A stretch of DNA of 64,000 nt from Escherichia phage vB_EcoM_SA21RB, in sequence record OL960580. The stretch is one strand, 5' to 3'. Positions 25,906-37,690 of this stretch are shown here, in pieces. Every line of letters begins with the position of its first letter. Within the stretch, counting starts at the first letter, position 1. Made by a program: the position numbers and the translations under genes. The notes below the pieces were generated by a model. It ran no database searches and was not told the origin of the DNA. It was given only the letters and a program-made list of their open reading frames with translations.

Positions 25906-28002
25906 TTATCCTTGAACGAACTTGTAAGGCATGTTTGTAATATCTATGCAAGACGCAATAATTCCAAGAGATGATTCTACTTTTTGTTTAACATTTGATG
26001 AAACAAATGATGCAAAGTCAACTCTGTCTTCTATTTCAATATCACCTGTCATTGCAACTACTTCACCAGTTTCCATTAGACGGTCACCGTCATAAATTAC
26101 TGATTCGGTGAGTTCTTCCGTAGTCATAACTTCAGCTTGAATGAGTTTTGTATTATTAGATGTTGTTCCGTCATTATTAGAAGCATCAGTTATTTTATTA
26201 ACTTTGACCATCAATCCGCGTGGTAGAATAACTTCAGCTTCTGTTGCTATTCCGAGACTTCCTGGATATACAACATTAACTTTATGTGCGCCGTCAATTG
26301 CCCATCCTATTTGAACTTTAACGTATTCAGGATTTTCTTTATACGCTCTTATTTCGTTTGGATTAATAGTTATTCCTTCTTCATTTTTATCAACTGTCAA
26401 TTCATTACGAGCTTCTGGTTCTAAAAGACCAATACCAGCATGTGTAATTCCAAAACGTCCAAAAATGATAGGAGTTAAAGAAGTAGATACAAAATTTCTG
26501 AAATAGAACACTTTATTTTTAACTAGTGCTTCGTATATAGGAGCAGTCATACTTTGTGCACGATAAACTGTAATGCCTTCCGGTATACGGTCACCATTTT
26601 CAAAAGCTGAATCTAAGTTATTTATAGCAGATTCAATTTCTTTTTCACTCATTACATCATATCGTTCTGGATTGTAGCGTCCTAAAAGAAGATTATTGAT
26701 GTCAGTATATCCTGAACCACAATACTCTCTAATGCCGCGCTTTTGTGATGGAGTATATTTAGAACCATCACGGGCAATAGTAATATCAATCATTGGACCT
26801 GCACCAATTCCAGAAAAGCTATAAATCATTCGTTTGAGGAATTTAGTTTTTGCTGCGTTCCAGGAATTTTTAGTTATTTCTTCCCAGACTTCATCTGGCT
26901 GTCCTTTACGGGTTTTATTATGTTTATCAAGCCAAGTATCTTTATATTCTTCAAAGAATTTATTAATAGCTGCTGCATACTTCTCTAAACATTTTATTGA
27001 AGTAGTTGGTTCATTTTTGATCGCGTTAAAAATTACATCTTTAATTTTTTCAGAAACTTCATTAACCTCACTTTTTGAAAAGAATTTATAATCATAGTGA
27101 AGTTCATCTGCAGTTCCTTCAGCAATAATTTTTGCTGCCTTAGTTTTAGAAGCCAATGAATTAATTCCAAGTTTCATTTCTTCTGCTTCAGGAATTAAAG
27201 GAGCGGTAGCAGGTTTATTGAAATTAGCTGCGGTAGATTCATACTTCTGGAATAATTCACTTTCAAATCTAGAAGATTCCAATGACTGACTTTGTGCAAT
27301 TGCTCTACGGGAAATTTTAACTTTAACGATTACAGCTTGGTCAGAACGTTTATCATTTTCTTGCGCAATAGATGCAGCAATTGCCTCATTTTTAGTTACT
27401 TGAGCTCCAGTATCTTTATTGATATAAACATCACCGACCTTCGATTCAACTTTAGTAAAGAGCTCGGTGCTAATTTCCGGAATTCCTGGAATGTCTTCTA
27501 GTGATACATTTTTGCGATGTATAAGAATATATGCATACTTTTTATCGTAATCCCAGAGTTCCTTAAGAAGGACGTATCTGCCACCCGAACGACTACGGAT
27601 AAGTCTATCAGCAATAACTTGAATTTGTCGAGCTTGACCAGCAGTTTTAGACTTAAGAATACGGAGCATACAGGCATCAATTTTATACTGACGCATCGTC
27701 TGCATTGCAACAGTAAAAACTGAATTGATGTAATTAATTGGGCTTGGACCGAGACCTTTCAATTTAGCAATTGAACCTTTAGCAGTTAATGTAAAAGGAA
27801 CAATATGCATCATTTTATCGCCCATTTTTAAATCGCGATTAGTATCACCTCCAGATGTATAGGTACATAAACGAAAGCCTGGTTGTTCAATTGCGTCATC
27901 AACATGAACTGAAAAAATTTGCGGTATTTTCTTCTTTGGATTTAAGTTTGTAATCGGAAGAGTAGTATCTTCGTCAAATAATTCTGTAATAAGTTCCATC
28001 AT
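25906..28002 (-). CDS. alt: Alt ADP-ribosyltransferase (698 aa), packaged capsid effector
   Basis: R-S-E ART motifs (VYRAQ, FVSTSL, EAEVILPRG); adjacent to the gene 30 side as T4 alt. Confidence 0.85.
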   Translation of the reverse strand: MMELITELFDEDTTLPITNLNPKKKIPQIFSVHVDDAIEQPGFRLCTYTSGGDTNRDLKMGDKMMHIVPFTLTAKGSIAKLKGLGPSPINYINSVFTVAMQTMRQYKIDACMLRILKSKTAGQARQIQVIADRLIRSRSGGRYVLLKELWDYDKKYAYILIHRKNVSLEDIPGIPEISTELFTKVESKVGDVYINKDTGAQVTKNEAIAASIAQENDKRSDQAVIVKVKISRRAIAQSQSLESSRFESELFQKYESTAANFNKPATAPLIPEAEEMKLGINSLASKTKAAKIIAEGTADELHYDYKFFSKSEVNEVSEKIKDVIFNAIKNEPTTSIKCLEKYAAAINKFFEEYKDTWLDKHNKTRKGQPDEVWEEITKNSWNAAKTKFLKRMIYSFSGIGAGPMIDITIARDGSKYTPSQKRGIREYCGSGYTDINNLLLGRYNPERYDVMSEKEIESAINNLDSAFENGDRIPEGITVYRAQSMTAPIYEALVKNKVFYFRNFVSTSLTPIIFGRFGITHAGIGLLEPEARNELTVDKNEEGITINPNEIRAYKENPEYVKVQIGWAIDGAHKVNVVYPGSLGIATEAEVILPRGLMVKVNKITDASNNDGTTSNNTKLIQAEVMTTEELTESVIYDGDRLMETGEVVAMTGDIEIEDRVDFASFVSSNVKQKVESSLGIIASCIDITNMPYKFVQG

Positions 28003-28054: not shown

Positions 28055-28240
28055 GTAATCTAGTGGTAAGAGAGTACGATATATTTCAAACTTTGGTCCT
28101 TTTTCATAGGCATCAAATGTTTCTGTAAATTTATTATAAGCATATGCATCTACAAATTCGAGAATGACTTGTGATACAGAAGTAGAAACATCTCCACCTT
28201 CTTTTTGAGCAATGACAATTGTTTCTAAGTAAGCTTTCAT
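28052..28240 (-). CDS. Hypothetical protein, 62 aa, between gene 30 and alt
   Basis: ATG ORF with ATGA overlap onto the gene 30 stop. Confidence 0.6.
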   Translation of the reverse strand: MKAYLETIVIAQKEGGDVSTSVSQVILEFVDAYAYNKFTETFDAYEKGPKFEIYRTLLPLDY

Positions 28241-29700
28241 AGACCAGTTACCTCATGAAAATCACCAAATACATCCTCGAATGTATTAGCTTTAGTTTTA
28301 TCTTCGCGTAAACGAATCGCAATCGGAAGAAATAATTTAACGTAATCAGTGCGGCCATCAGATTTTAACCAACCATTGCATTCGCACTCTAGAATTTTTC
28401 CAATATAATAATTTTGGTTTTCCATAATGCGAGTACGGTCAAGTTCATGTGATTTTACACCGGCTTTATCTTTTAAGCCTGAACCAGCATTTACTTTAAT
28501 TTTTCCACATTCTGATTCAAGAATAAATCCACCGGCTTTAGTAGGGTCTTTACGGTGAGGATAAATTCCTACAATTTTTAAATCAACATCAATTACTTCT
28601 TTAAATTTATAGAGATTTTTTGAACGAGCATTTTCCCACAATCCATCGGTATTTTTGAGAATAATACCTTCAAGACCTTGGTCAATATATTTTTTATAAA
28701 TTACCTTAGCTTCATCTAGGTTATTTACTACCTGGTTTTCAATTAAAATTACTTTATCATATCCTGATGTCATTTGTTCTAGTTTAGAAAAACGTACATC
28801 ATATTTTAAACGAAACGCCGGAAGACCGTATATTTCTACCAACGGGACATAATCCCAGACCTGAAACTTCATACATTGAGCTTCTTTTTCAGAAATGGTT
28901 CCTTTTAAGGATTTATTGGCGATTCCATTAGAAGTAGTACGAGATTCCGCTACTTCGGCGAATTCTTTAGCTTTACTAATTTCAGGATAAGCATCAAAAA
29001 GAAAATCTAGGCCTTCTGGTTCCTTTTTAACTTGCTCATGGTATACCAATTCGCCATCAATTAACACACCTTCTGGATGAATCTGGCGGGCTTCAGCAGT
29101 CATTTTGATTAACTCTTCCTTAAGAAGATCTAATCCTAGATATTCATTACCAGCTCGTGATAAAAGACGAACATCATCTAATTCATCGCCTCGGACTTCA
29201 GCAAAACACCGAGCTCCATCTGCTTTTAACTGCGCAAAGGCTGGAAACTTGATATTCTTACTAATGCCTTTTTCATCATAAGAACTTGCCAGCATTTGAG
29301 GTTGTTCAGGAATTAAACCTGGCCAAACTTTATTTGCAATAGATACTGAAGCACCGCATTCAAGGTCTCGCATCATAACTCGACGCAAAACTTCAACATC
29401 ATCCTTTTTACCATCGGTGATATATCCAATTAATTCCTCAATTGCCGCATTTCCAGTCAATTTCCGAGTAGCTAACGTGAATTCAATGAAGTCAAGCATA
29501 TCGGTAATAGTCAGCATTCCAAAACTCTGGGTAGCAATACCAGGTTTAGGCCATTTCTTGATATAATACTGTAACCCACGAGAATAAGTTAGACGATATA
29601 CTCGTTTAAGCAATTCATTATCTTTATTCTTTTCAAGAATTGCTTGCTTCTGCTTAGTTGATCCAATAGATGCTATTTCATTCAGAATTTTAAGAATCAT
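28237..29700 (-). CDS. 30: ATP-dependent DNA ligase gp30
   Basis: 487-aa ORF with ligase adenylation motif KADGAR; length of T4 gp30. Confidence 0.93.
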   Translation of the reverse strand: MILKILNEIASIGSTKQKQAILEKNKDNELLKRVYRLTYSRGLQYYIKKWPKPGIATQSFGMLTITDMLDFIEFTLATRKLTGNAAIEELIGYITDGKKDDVEVLRRVMMRDLECGASVSIANKVWPGLIPEQPQMLASSYDEKGISKNIKFPAFAQLKADGARCFAEVRGDELDDVRLLSRAGNEYLGLDLLKEELIKMTAEARQIHPEGVLIDGELVYHEQVKKEPEGLDFLFDAYPEISKAKEFAEVAESRTTSNGIANKSLKGTISEKEAQCMKFQVWDYVPLVEIYGLPAFRLKYDVRFSKLEQMTSGYDKVILIENQVVNNLDEAKVIYKKYIDQGLEGIILKNTDGLWENARSKNLYKFKEVIDVDLKIVGIYPHRKDPTKAGGFILESECGKIKVNAGSGLKDKAGVKSHELDRTRIMENQNYYIGKILECECNGWLKSDGRTDYVKLFLPIAIRLREDKTKANTFEDVFGDFHEVTGL

Positions 29701-29966
29701 TGTTCATCCTTCAGAGTTTGATTTACAGCTCTATTATAAATCAATTCATCATTAAGCTCAGTCAAAGACTTATGATATGTAGTTCTAACTTTATTTCCTT
29801 GCATCCAGTGCTTGATATAAATGAAACCTTGCTCTACGCATTTTTTAAAAATTCGTTCGTCTTTTTGAGCTCGGAATTCTGGATTGCATCTAAAAAATTG
29901 ATTTACGTGACCGTAATCACGCGTAGTATTACCTTCATTTTCATAAATAGTGTGAACGACAAACAT
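29697..29966 (-). CDS. 30.1: Hypothetical protein (30.1 position)
   Basis: 89-aa ORF overlapping neighbours by 4 nt. Confidence 0.65.
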   Translation of the reverse strand: MFVVHTIYENEGNTTRDYGHVNQFFRCNPEFRAQKDERIFKKCVEQGFIYIKHWMQGNKVRTTYHKSLTELNDELIYNRAVNQTLKDEQ

Positions 29967-30805
29967 TAGAATGCTCCTTGGAAAATATTATCACCACAAG
30001 TAGGTCTATTATACAAATACTCTATTCCACCAGGTTTAATATAGTTCCATGTCTGAAACGGATGTGTCTGATATGGATGATATAGATGATTATAAGGATT
30101 AACTCCAGGTGTTCTCCAGGTAGTGTTCCAACGAAAAGAATCATTTTTAATCATCTTTTCAATTATATTTTTTATAGCTTTTTCGCTATCAAAACTTTCT
30201 TTATTTTCCTTTGGTGAAAAAAGCTTATTTTCTACATCATTCCATGTATAAACTCGCTGCGCAGTTTTTGGAATATTGTCACGCTCTCCTCGAGCCATCC
30301 AATAAACTGGAACATTTAATATTTCACTCGCGTGGTCGCAGTGGTGAGCGAGATCGTCAATATAACAAATTACGTTATATTTCTCTTTTGCCTTTTTGAA
30401 TAACTCTTCTTTTGAAGAATCATGACCACACATCATTACTTCTGAGAAGGCACCAGGAAAAAGAGCATTCAAATTAAATTGACGATTCAGCAGAGCGTCA
30501 ATAGAATCACCCAATGCTGTAACAGCTACAAAATTATAATCTTCTTTTAATTTGTTAATTACACACAGGGCATCTTTATATGGAGACAAGTAACGAATAA
30601 AATCTGAACGATTGTATTTTTCAATTAACTTGACGCCAAGTTCTTCATCACAATTAAAGAGTTTACCTGGAGAAATAAATTTCTCATCTTGGATCATTTT
30701 TAAAATATGTTCTAATGGAAGATTATATTTCTGGGCAAAATAAGGAAGGCCTGATTGCCAGCTTAAACATACACCATCAATATCAGTCAAAATAGTTGGC
30801 TTCAT
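29966..30805 (-). CDS. 30.2: HAD-like phosphatase-fold hypothetical protein (30.2 position)
   Basis: 279-aa ORF with N-terminal DIDGV (DxDG[TV], HAD motif I). Confidence 0.7.
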   Translation of the reverse strand: MKPTILTDIDGVCLSWQSGLPYFAQKYNLPLEHILKMIQDEKFISPGKLFNCDEELGVKLIEKYNRSDFIRYLSPYKDALCVINKLKEDYNFVAVTALGDSIDALLNRQFNLNALFPGAFSEVMMCGHDSSKEELFKKAKEKYNVICYIDDLAHHCDHASEILNVPVYWMARGERDNIPKTAQRVYTWNDVENKLFSPKENKESFDSEKAIKNIIEKMIKNDSFRWNTTWRTPGVNPYNHLYHPYQTHPFQTWNYIKPGGIEYLYNRPTCGDNIFQGAF

Positions 30806-31260
30806 AGAGAGTCTCTTAATAGGTTTAACACATCAATAAATTCAGCTTCGGTTAGTATTGTATCATCTTTTGTTAGACCACTAGCCATGCTGTGCTTCAA
30901 AACTTTTCCTTTCGAGGCTTGTAATGCATCGCGAAAGCCCTTATTTTGGATCGCTGCTTCAAAATATGCATTTGTGTATAATTCTTTCCACGCCGGGGAG
31001 TATCTTGAAAACGGAACTCCAAGCCAAAAGAGGGTCCCACGGTCCTGAGCTCTAGCATAAGACCTTCCAGCTTGTTGGGCGGCAAGCCCGGATAACCCAA
31101 ATATACGTCTTTGCTGTTCAACATTTTTCACCTTACACCCTTGGAGAAATCCTTCGAGACCTCCAAATTGGATACCATCCATAACAAAAGGCCATTGGGC
31201 GAAATTACTTAATGCACATGATGGCCATCTAAAATTGCTTCTAATCTCTAATTCAGACAT
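30802..31260 (-). CDS. 30.3: Hypothetical protein (30.3 position)
   Basis: 152-aa ORF. Confidence 0.65.
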   Translation of the reverse strand: MSELEIRSNFRWPSCALSNFAQWPFVMDGIQFGGLEGFLQGCKVKNVEQQRRIFGLSGLAAQQAGRSYARAQDRGTLFWLGVPFSRYSPAWKELYTNAYFEAAIQNKGFRDALQASKGKVLKHSMASGLTKDDTILTEAEFIDVLNLLRDSL

Positions 31261-31468
31261 CTTTAATACTTATAATTTCAATATCAGCCCAATGACCATA
31301 ACTTGGTAAACGGTCTTCAATAGATAATCCGCCATCATATTTAAGCATTTTAATTGTCATAATATATGGCTCTAAATGGTCTTCAGTGAGCGGAGAGACA
31401 TCAGTCACACGATAAGTAACTTCAACCATTTCCGTGCCCAGTAATTTCTGGATTAATTTCTTAAACAT
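31253..31468 (-). CDS. Hypothetical protein (30.x)
   Basis: 71-aa ORF. Confidence 0.55.
   Translation of the reverse strand: MFKKLIQKLLGTEMVEVTYRVTDVSPLTEDHLEPYIMTIKMLKYDGGLSIEDRLPSYGHWADIEIISIKDV

Positions 31469-36275: not shown

Positions 36276-37690
<1,415 letters not shown>

What the first reader, a model, noticed from the sequence alone, without database searches (positions are those of the whole stretch)
29966..30805. 30.2-position ORF carries a HAD-phosphatase signature
The 279-aa protein begins MKPTILTDIDGVCL, matching HAD superfamily motif I (DxDG[TV]) in its usual N-terminal position, analogous to the phosphatase half of polynucleotide kinase (DVDGTL) in the same window. That would give a functional hypothesis (nucleotidase or phosphatase) for an otherwise hypothetical early gene.
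Basis: inference. Interest (0 to 1): 0.35.

Follow-up and report, generated by a model that had tools for sequence, protein, structure and literature searches.

The report
T4 gp30.2: capped HAD phosphatase, nucleotidase-like
The "hypothetical" phage T4 gene 30.2 encodes a genuine HAD-family phosphatase whose closest named relatives are 5'(3')-deoxyribonucleotidases; this is a sound but unsurprising function prediction for a gene that lab screens find dispensable and whose real substrate is unknown.

Summary
Window 29966-30805 (minus strand) encodes a 279-aa protein starting MKPTILTDIDGVCL, 97% identical to T4 gp30.2. The bare D.DG[TV] motif is not significant alone (2 seen, 0.61 expected). D8, D10 and K132 are invariant and D151 is at least 90% conserved across 132 relatives; T96 is at least 90% conserved among 32 closer ones. 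These residues sit where HAD motifs I-IV belong in a high-confidence AlphaFold model. All 50 listed PDB fold matches are HAD enzymes, and the family profile hits a solved NT5C-type deoxyribonucleotidase (3bwv, E 9e-7). NT5C is also the Pfam family relatives hit most often (37/132).

The protein is not Pnk-like beyond the superfamily: a five-helix C1 cap (residues 16-72) implies a small-molecule substrate, most plausibly a nucleoside monophosphate. An 82-residue, largely disordered C-terminal tail ends in a conserved GIEYLxxxPT peptide. The gene lies on the same strand within 700 bp of DNA ligase in 72/77 related phage loci.

Published T4 screens show it is dispensable and not needed for the anti-DarTG1 role of neighbour 30.3/adfN. 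Substrate and biological role remain untested. Verdict: a new member of a known kind, modest interest.

The parts
29966..30805 (-). CDS of the gp30.2 ortholog (279 aa plus stop), a HAD-superfamily phosphatase with a C1 cap and a C-terminal tail
   Evidence: ORF and translation; 97% identical to T4 gp30.2; PHROG 420 at E 6e-92
30770..30784 (-). HAD motif I, D8-I-D10-G-V12 (nucleophile Asp8, general acid/base Asp10), at the end of strand beta1 (residues 4-7)
   Evidence: D8 and D10 invariant in 132 relatives; all 100 homolog clusters keep DxD; strand positions
30590..30760 (-). C1-type cap: five helices (residues 16-72) inserted directly after motif I; includes W16 (at least 90% conserved), which aligns with a Phe of mouse cdN
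   Evidence: DSSP helices H16-26, H32-40, H46-49, H54-65, H68-72; W16 conservation; alignment to 2jao
30518..30529 (-). HAD motif II, V93-A-V-T96 (three hydrophobic residues then Ser/Thr) at the end of strand beta2 (residues 91-96)
   Evidence: T96 at least 90% conserved in A1, with Ser visible in P0097/P0098; strand
30410..30412 (-). HAD motif III lysine, K132, just before helix 133-142
   Evidence: Invariant in 132 relatives; secondary structure
30353..30358 (-). HAD motif IV, D150-D151 (Mg2+ ligands) at the end of strand beta4 (residues 145-150)
   Evidence: D151 at least 90% conserved in 132 relatives; both at least 90% conserved in A1
29969..30214 (-). C-terminal tail (residues 198-279): one predicted helix (207-220), then an Asn/Pro/aromatic-rich segment with low model confidence (block pLDDT 40-53 from residue 221); absent from about 42% of homolog clusters
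   Evidence: pLDDT and secondary structure; composition and length split 42/58; alignment
29999..30028 (-). Conserved terminal peptide G260-IEYLYNRP-T269 (consensus GIEYLxxxPT), 6-10 residues from the C-terminus; a possible docking motif
   Evidence: Found in 15/100 homolog clusters across several clades; unique to this ORF in the window
30802..31260 (-). Context: upstream neighbour 30.3/adfN (NADAR anti-DarTG1 factor); its stop overlaps the 30.2 start
   Evidence: Pfam Phage_30_3 at E 2e-70; function from preprint 10.1101/2025.11.20.689424
29697..29966 (-). Context: downstream neighbour 30.1 (DUF3045); its start overlaps the 30.2 stop
   Evidence: Pfam DUF3045 at E 4e-64
28237..29700 (-). Context: DNA ligase (gene 30), the neighbour that stays linked to the HAD gene in related phages
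   Evidence: Annotation; ligase on the same strand within 700 bp in 72/77 related loci

Best explanation
gp30.2 is a Mg2+-dependent phosphomonoesterase of the haloacid-dehalogenase (HAD) superfamily that acts on a small phosphorylated metabolite, most probably a (deoxy)nucleoside monophosphate. The mechanism is inferred from the family. Asp8 attacks the substrate phosphate to form an aspartyl-phosphate intermediate. Asp10 acts as general acid/base. Thr96 and Lys132 hold the phosphate. Asp150 and Asp151 bind Mg2+. A five-helix C1 cap (residues 16-72) closes over the active site and selects the substrate, with conserved Trp16 as the likely base-stacking residue. The family is a diverged sister of the NT5C 5'(3')-deoxyribonucleotidases. 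The 82-residue C-terminal tail is an accessory found in some clades; its conserved end peptide may tether the enzyme to a partner. Shown here: the fold, the motif set, their conservation and the nearest relatives. Inferred: catalysis, the substrate class and the role of the tail.
For: Sequence and conservation: D8, D10 and K132 are invariant and D151 and W16 at least 90% conserved in 132 relatives down to about 22% identity. T96, D150 and D151 are at least 90% conserved in 32 closer relatives. All 100 homolog clusters keep DxD. These fit the published nucleotidase motifs DXDX[T/V], PhiPhiPhi[S/T] and K(X)xD(X)0-4D (PMC3946280). Fold: the model has pLDDT 83.7 overall and block values of 84-98 over residues 1-200, and the motifs sit at the ends of beta1, beta2 and beta4. 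All 50 listed Foldseek PDB matches are HAD enzymes. The deoxyribonucleotidases give the lowest rmsd (4.3-4.8 A) and target-normalised TM-scores of 0.62-0.71 (2jao, 2i7d, 4yih, 1q92, 3bwv). Viral matches include proteins named 5' nucleotidase or deoxyribonucleotidase. Profiles: the A1 profile's best PDB hit is mouse cdN 2jao (E 0.022), with DGVLADFESGL aligned to DGVlvkWqSGl. The broader A2 profile hits 3bwv, a putative 5'(3')-deoxyribonucleotidase, end to end at E 9e-7, followed by the SSM1/SDT1 nucleotidases, MDP-1, and mdN/cdN; XMP phosphatase appears further down. NT5C is the Pfam family relatives match most often (37/132). P0220 matches the 30.2 profile at 5.8e-21 and passes the NT5C curated cutoff (37.3 against 24.8 bits). 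Some source records already name relatives 5'(3')-deoxyribonucleotidase or HAD-superfamily hydrolase.
Against: No activity has been measured for any member of this phage family; no paper assigning a function was found. The window protein itself matches no Pfam or NCBIfam model, NT5C included, and single-sequence PDB search finds nothing, so the NT5C link is transitive. The lowest-E Foldseek matches are epoxysuccinate hydrolases and haloacid dehalogenases, not nucleotidases. In 3bwv the residue aligned to W16 is Thr, so the stacking argument is not general. A general dNMP nucleotidase seems counter-productive for T4, which salvages host dNMPs (own knowledge). The gene is dispensable: 72/72 TA sites tolerate insertions and CRISPRi knock-down has no fitness effect, so there is no phenotype to anchor a role.
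Confidence: 0.8

Rival explanations
1. It is a polynucleotide 3'-phosphatase (end-healing enzyme) like the phosphatase domain of Pnk/PNKP, preparing nicks for the neighbouring DNA ligase.
For: Weak PHROG hit to the polynucleotide kinase family (phrog_415, E 0.0018, residues 74-177). Phage Pnk proteins appear among the viral fold matches. DNA ligase lies on the same strand within 700 bp in 72/77 related loci, in either gene order.
Against: The five-helix C1 cap over the active site is the architecture of small-molecule HAD enzymes; PNKP-type phosphatases have an open site (established HAD classification, own knowledge). Motif I to motif II is 88 residues here against about 45 in the window's Pnk. 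hhalign against that Pnk gives only 12.9% probability. Pnk matches rank well below nucleotidases in Foldseek, with query-normalised TM 0.40-0.49. The phage already encodes Pnk in the same window. Ligase linkage may be inherited synteny, and it is absent in the 5 most divergent loci.
Confidence: 0.07
2. It is a HAD phosphatase or phosphomutase for a non-nucleotide metabolite, such as a sugar phosphate, phosphoglycolate or a riboflavin/FMN intermediate.
For: Relatives also hit the generic HAD models Hydrolase (15/132) and HAD_2 (11/132). One close fold match in BFVD is named phosphoglycolate phosphatase, and one JGI record calls a homolog FMN phosphatase YigB. Substrate cannot be read from a HAD fold.
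Against: NT5C is the most frequent specific family among relatives (37/132). Most of the best sequence-profile matches to solved structures are nucleotide monophosphatases (3bwv, SSM1/SDT1, mdN/cdN). The conserved aromatic W16 aligns with a Phe of cdN.
Confidence: 0.15
3. It is a non-phosphatase HAD enzyme (2-haloacid dehalogenase or epoxide hydrolase), as the lowest-E Foldseek matches are.
For: Foldseek ranks 1-5 are cis-epoxysuccinate hydrolase, L-2-haloacid dehalogenase and YfnB, at E 4e-8 to 8e-8.
Against: The second Asp of motif I (D10) and D151 of motif IV are conserved throughout. These residues serve acid/base catalysis and Mg2+ binding in phosphoryl transfer (PMC3946280), and dehalogenases lack them (own knowledge). 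Those matches have poor rmsd (7-9 A) compared with the nucleotidases (4.3-4.8 A). No plausible substrate exists in an infected E. coli cell.
Confidence: 0.02
4. It works together with its translationally coupled upstream neighbour 30.3/AdfN (a NADAR ADP-ribosyl hydrolase) against DarTG1, for example by disposing of the released ADP-ribose.
For: The 30.3 stop and 30.2 start overlap (ATGA). 30.3 lies upstream of the HAD gene in 29/77 related loci. 30.3 is the anti-DarTG1 factor adfN.
Against: In the T4 transposon screen under DarTG1, 30.2 insertions are not depleted (71 TA sites, log2FC -0.12, q 1.0), whereas 30.3 is lost (log2FC -7.25, q 0). 48/77 loci have the HAD gene without a detectable 30.3.
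Confidence: 0.03

Closest known systems
NT5C family (Pfam PF06941): cytosolic and mitochondrial 5'(3')-deoxyribonucleotidases cdN/mdN, and bacterial homologs such as S. epidermidis 3bwv
   Same: HAD core with an all-helical C1 cap of similar size, about 190-200 aa in total. Same motif set, DxDGV...T...K...DD. Local similarity extends past motif I (DGVLADFESGL against DGVCLSWQSGL). Best profile-to-PDB match (3bwv, E 9e-7, full length), lowest-rmsd fold matches, and 37/132 relatives match the Pfam model.
   Different: The window protein does not reach the Pfam NT5C model at all. It has Trp where cdN has Phe after motif I, and it has family-specific invariant residues R108 and N111. It carries an 82-residue tail that NT5C enzymes lack. 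Its activity and substrate are unknown.
Phosphatase domain of T4 polynucleotide kinase (Pnk/PseT; HAD_PNKP), encoded in the same window at 36465-37373 (-)
   Same: Same superfamily and the same catalytic motif I (DxDGT/V), with K and DD motifs in the same order.
   Different: Pnk has no large cap (about 45 residues between motifs I and II, against 88 here), is fused to a kinase domain, and acts on polynucleotide 3' ends. Profile comparison gives only 12.9% probability over 25 columns.
Generic subfamily-I HAD phosphatases (Pfam HAD_2/Hydrolase; e.g. YfnB, SDT1/SSM1 pyrimidine nucleotidase, NANP/HDHD4)
   Same: C1-capped HAD architecture. Foldseek E 1e-7 to 1e-6. SSM1 matches the A2 profile at E 6e-5 over the motif III-IV region.
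   Different: These matches are only partial or have high rmsd. The sequence signals to these models are weaker and rarer among relatives than those to NT5C.

Membership tests
HAD superfamily | Rossmann-like alpha/beta core recognisable by fold comparison | tested here: met
   Model pLDDT 84-98 (10-residue blocks) over residues 1-200. All 50 listed PDB Foldseek matches are HAD enzymes at probability 1.00, with 103 matches at E<=1e-3.
HAD superfamily | Motif I DxD at the end of strand 1 | tested here: met
   D8-I-D10 follows strand 4-7. Invariant in 132 relatives and kept in all 100 homolog clusters.
HAD superfamily | Motif II Ser/Thr preceded by hydrophobic residues at the end of strand 2 | tested here: met
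   V93-A-V-T96 at the end of strand 91-96. T96 at least 90% conserved in A1, with Ser in P0097/P0098.
HAD superfamily | Motif III Lys and motif IV acidic pair (DD) at the end of strand 4 | tested here: met
   K132 invariant and D151 at least 90% conserved in 132 relatives. D150-D151 at the end of strand 145-150.
HAD superfamily | Mg2+-dependent phosphoryl transfer through an aspartyl-phosphate intermediate | not testable with these tools
   Needs an enzyme assay with D8N/D10N controls.
NT5C (PF06941) 5'(3')-deoxyribonucleotidases | Sequence reaches the curated Pfam gathering score | tested here: not met
   No Pfam hit for the window protein even at E<=10. Only distant relatives match: 37/132 at E<=1e-3, and P0220 at 37.3 bits passes the 24.8-bit cutoff.
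NT5C (PF06941) 5'(3')-deoxyribonucleotidases | All-helical C1 cap inserted directly after motif I | tested here: met
   Helices 16-26, 32-40, 46-49, 54-65 and 68-72 lie between motif I and the core helix 77-86. Best rmsd and TM-scores are with cdN/mdN/3bwv.
NT5C (PF06941) 5'(3')-deoxyribonucleotidases | Aromatic base-stacking residue eight positions after the nucleophile Asp | tested here: inconclusive
   W16 (at least 90% conserved) aligns with Phe of mouse cdN, but with Thr in 3bwv.
NT5C (PF06941) 5'(3')-deoxyribonucleotidases | Hydrolysis of 5'- or 3'-(deoxy)nucleoside monophosphates | not testable with these tools
   Needs a substrate screen.
PNKP-type polynucleotide 3'-phosphatase (HAD_PNKP, phrog_415) | Significant sequence or profile similarity to the Pnk phosphatase domain | tested here: not met
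   phrog_415 only at E 0.0018 and partial. BLASTP against the window's Pnk is not significant. hhalign probability 12.9%.
PNKP-type polynucleotide 3'-phosphatase (HAD_PNKP, phrog_415) | Open, essentially capless active site that admits polynucleotide ends; often fused to a kinase | tested here: not met
   A 57-residue helical cap is present. There is no kinase domain. The motif I-II spacing is 88 residues against about 45 in Pnk.

The most novel reading that the evidence does not exclude
gp30.2 is not a housekeeping nucleotidase. It would instead be a specialised phosphatase tied to DNA ligase or to host-defence evasion. For example, it could remove a nucleotide by-product or inhibitor of ligation (such as AMP), or it could destroy a phosphorylated nucleotide signal or toxic nucleotide made by a bacterial immune system absent from lab E. 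coli. In some clades its conserved C-terminal GIEYLxxxPT peptide would dock it onto a partner protein. The evidence does not exclude this reading. The gene stays on the same strand within 700 bp of ligase in 72/77 loci, in both gene orders. It is flanked by counter-defence genes (adfN, alt). It is dispensable in K-12.
Probability: 0.12. Interest if true: 0.6.

Novelty: new member of a known kind. Interest (0 to 1): 0.3.

Why it matters
T4 is the reference phage, yet many of its genes still lack a function. This work gives gene 30.2 a well-supported biochemical class (a capped HAD phosphatase in the NT5C neighbourhood) and concrete catalytic residues to mutate. It defines a large, mostly unannotated family: 1,471 cluster representatives at 50% identity, centred on T4-like phages. 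It also turns "hypothetical protein" into a directly assayable hypothesis. A nucleotide phosphatase would be an unplaced piece in T4's intensively studied nucleotide metabolism, and its persistent pairing with DNA ligase gives a specific lead. The fold assignment itself is routine, and a few database records already carry similar names.

Tried and rejected
- Single-sequence scans found nothing: Pfam and NCBIfam and PDB phmmer (only a chance RanGAP hit). Profiles and structure were needed.
- Literature searches by gene name found no functional study of 30.2 (gp30.2, 30.2/30.3/rIII, NP_049815, phage + deoxyribonucleotidase + HAD). The T4 genome review I tried by ID is not held.
- Functional coupling to 30.3/AdfN is rejected on published transposon data.
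- The small ORFs upstream of the HAD gene in L003 and L004 are not detectable 30.3 homologs.
- 30.3 could not be linked to NADAR by sequence here. That identification rests on the cited preprint.
- Fusion partners of distant relatives (P0150, P0211, P0102, P0140) gave no Pfam hits, so they give no substrate clue.
- The search for related loci with the broad alignment A2 failed because it was too diverse. A1 worked.
- The promoter scan is uninformative (21 sites against 20.5 expected), so expression timing was not assessed.
- The C-terminal peptide was not found in any other ORF of the window.

Full report
**1. What is in the sequence**

Window 29966-30805 holds an ATG-to-stop ORF on the minus strand. 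It encodes 279 aa beginning MKPTILTDIDGVCLSWQSG.

The window is a Tequatrovirus. The ORF's DNA is 97.9% identical to Escherichia phage ECO07P1 and matches 654 phage records. The protein is 97% identical (270/279) to T4 gp30.2.

Gene order matches T4: 30.3, 30.2, 30.1, 30 (DNA ligase), alt.1, alt, all on the minus strand. The 30.3 stop overlaps the 30.2 start (ATGA), and the 30.2 stop overlaps the 30.1 start (TAATG). Terminator-like hairpins at 32675-32654 and 28054-28035 bracket the block.

A 302-aa Pnk-like ORF at 36465-37373 (-) contains FDVDGTL.

**2. Is the motif more than chance?**

On its own, no. D.DG[TV] occurs twice in the window's 129 stop-to-stop ORFs of at least 80 aa, against 0.61 expected from residue shuffles, and 11% of shuffles reach two. 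The case has to rest on other evidence, which follows.

**3. Conservation**

A word-indexed search found 100 homolog clusters, essentially all from T4-like phages and metagenomes. All of them keep the DxD pair.

- In a 32-sequence alignment (A1), D8, D10, G11, W16, S18, K132 and R172 are invariant. T96, D150 and D151 are at least 90% conserved.
- An exhaustive HMMER profile search of 1.84 billion representatives found 1,471 proteins at E<=1e-3 and 664 at E<=1e-10. Most are 190-210 aa.
- In 132 diverse members (A2, down to about 22% identity), D8, D10, R108 and K132 remain invariant. V12, W16, N111 and D151 are at least 90% conserved.

These residues match the published motif definitions for HAD nucleotidases (PMC3946280):

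| Motif | Definition | In gp30.2 |
|---|---|---|
| I | DXDX[T/V] | D8-I-D10-G-V12 |
| II | PhiPhiPhi[S/T] | V93-A-V-T96 |
| III | K(X)xD(X)0-4D | K132...D150-D151 |

**4. Fold**

AlphaFold2 with A1 gave mean pLDDT 83.7 and pTM 0.70. Ten-residue block pLDDT is 84-98 over residues 1-200.

The strands are 4-7, 91-96, 120-125, 145-150 and 167-169. Motif I follows strand 1, T96 ends strand 2, K132 precedes helix 133-142, and D150 ends strand 4. These are the canonical HAD positions. Five helices (16-26, 32-40, 46-49, 54-65, 68-72) are inserted right after motif I, which makes a C1-type cap.

Foldseek against the PDB gave 103 matches at E<=1e-3. All 50 listed are C1-capped HAD enzymes at probability 1.00.

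- The lowest E-values go to epoxysuccinate hydrolases and haloacid dehalogenases, but with rmsd of 7-9 A.
- The best superpositions are the 5'(3')-deoxyribonucleotidases (2jao, 2i7d, 4yih, 1q92, 4mum, 3bwv), with rmsd 4.3-5.9 A and target-normalised TM-scores of 0.62-0.71.

In the viral library, the family's own members are followed by phage HAD proteins, several named 5' nucleotidase, deoxyribonucleotidase or phosphoglycolate phosphatase.

**5. Nearest named family**

The single sequence hits no Pfam or NCBIfam model. In PHROGs it hits only family 420, of unknown function, plus a weak partial hit to the Pnk family. Profiles see further:

- The A1 profile's best PDB match is mouse cytosolic 5'(3')-deoxyribonucleotidase 2jao (E 0.022). 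The alignment runs through motif I, the cap and motif II, and pairs W16 with a Phe (DGVLADFESGL against DGVlvkWqSGl).
- The A2 profile matches 3bwv, a putative 5'(3')-deoxyribonucleotidase, end to end at E 9.1e-7. SSM1/SDT1 nucleotidases, MDP-1 and mdN/cdN follow, with XMP phosphatase further down the list.
- Among the 132 relatives, 37 match Pfam NT5C at E<=1e-3, 15 match Hydrolase and 11 match HAD_2.
- P0220 bridges the two families. It matches the 30.2 profile at 5.8e-21 and scores 37.3 bits on NT5C, above the 24.8-bit cutoff.

I therefore place gp30.2 in a diverged sister group of NT5C. It is not inside the curated family.

**6. Relation to Pnk**

The analogy holds at superfamily level only. 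BLASTP finds just short pieces around motif I and the K...DD region. hhalign gives 12.9% probability over 25 columns.

Pnk has about 45 residues between motifs I and II, against 88 here. The difference is the cap. By the established HAD classification (my own knowledge), a cap closed over the active site indicates a small-molecule substrate rather than a polynucleotide end.

**7. The tail**

Residues 198-279 form one predicted helix (207-220) followed by an Asn/Pro/aromatic-rich segment with low confidence (block pLDDT 40-53 from residue 221).

Of the 100 homolog clusters, 42 are 235 aa or shorter and lack the tail. The tails that exist are variable. However, 15 clusters from several clades end in GIEYLxxxPT, 6-10 residues from the C-terminus. 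Here that peptide is residues 260-269. It occurs in no other ORF of the window. A docking motif is a reasonable guess, but it is untested.

**8. Genomic context**

In 77 related viral loci, a DNA ligase lies on the same strand within 700 bp of the HAD gene in 72 loci.

- Ligase is downstream in 65 loci (median gap 249 bp) and upstream in 7.
- It is directly adjacent (gap of 70 bp or less) in 24.
- The linkage survives in rearranged genomes (L003, L008).
- It is missing in the 5 most divergent loci.
- 30.3 is upstream in only 29/77 loci, and 30.1 is downstream in 24/77.

The linkage could reflect function or simply inherited synteny among Straboviridae.

**9. Experimental literature**

I found no paper that assigns 30.2 a function.

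- CRISPRi-ART (PMC11879866) lists it as unknown function (phrog_420) and "Not Fit".
- The HIDEN-SEQ preprint (10.1101/2025.11.20.689424) found insertions at 72/72 TA sites and classed it "Non-essential".
- The same preprint identifies the upstream neighbour 30.3 as adfN, a NADAR enzyme that reverses DarT1 ADP-ribosylation of DNA.
- In its DarTG1 table, 30.3 is lost (log2FC -7.25, q 0), but 30.2 is unaffected (log2FC -0.12, q 1.0). A joint anti-DarTG1 role is therefore not supported.

**10. Verdict**

gp30.2 is a bona fide HAD phosphatase with all four catalytic motifs and a C1 cap, and it is closest to the 5'(3')-deoxyribonucleotidases.

My confidence that it is a HAD phosphomonoesterase acting on a small molecule is about 0.8. 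That the substrate is a nucleotide I put at roughly 0.5. Substrate, biological role, the tail's function and the meaning of the ligase linkage all remain open.

This is a new member of a known kind. It is useful annotation for a model phage but not surprising, so I score interest at 0.3.

Noticed in passing
window 30802-31260 (-): The upstream neighbour 30.3 is annotated 'hypothetical protein' in the phage records seen here, but a 2025 preprint identifies it as adfN, a NADAR anti-DarTG1 ADP-ribosyl hydrolase. Sequence tools here gave only Pfam Phage_30_3 and no NADAR link.
   Followed up: partly
window 31253-31468 (-), the T4 30.4 position: In the published DarTG1 transposon table, 30.4, just upstream of adfN, is also depleted (log2FC -1.79, q 0.014). 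This could be a polar effect on adfN or a helper function.
   Followed up: no
window 29999-30028 (-), residues 260-269: A conserved C-terminal peptide, GIEYLxxxPT, ends a variable, largely disordered tail. It is present in 15/100 homolog clusters from several clades and absent from other ORFs in the window. It may be a short linear docking motif.
   Followed up: partly
window 30482-30484 and 30473-30475 (-), residues R108 and N111: R108 is invariant and N111 at least 90% conserved across 132 relatives, yet neither belongs to a canonical HAD motif. They are candidate family-specific substrate-binding residues.
   Followed up: no
P0014 (metagenomic homolog, 302 aa): This is a fusion of the 30.2 HAD core with 30.1/DUF3045 (PF11243) in one ORF. 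It hints that 30.2 and 30.1 may act together, or it may be an assembly or read-through artefact. Its motif I reads DIDDV.
   Followed up: no
P0150, P0140, P0211, P0102 (distant relatives): The HAD core is fused to unannotated domains. P0150 has an N-terminal region of about 380 aa containing 'GDLDIIIED' (it looks like a Pol-beta-type nucleotidyltransferase motif). P0140 has a C-terminal region containing 'NGRHR' (ParB/Srx-like?). None gave a Pfam hit.
   Followed up: partly
P0076 (Acinetobacter phage AB1I1M-1, 216 aa): This HAD-family homolog is named 'DNA ligase' in its NCBI record. It is probably a mis-annotation transferred from the adjacent ligase gene.
   Followed up: no
L085 6198-6647 (+) and 7965-8573 (+): This divergent locus, which has no nearby ligase, carries a second small HAD-like ORF (149 aa, 'IIFDVDGTL') about 1.3 kb upstream of the 30.2 relative.
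   Followed up: no
L001 1-4034 compared with window 25906-28002 (-): Phage G4498 has two tandem Alt-like ADP-ribosyltransferase genes downstream of ligase/alt.1. Only one 698-aa Alt ORF was listed in the part of the window examined.
   Followed up: no
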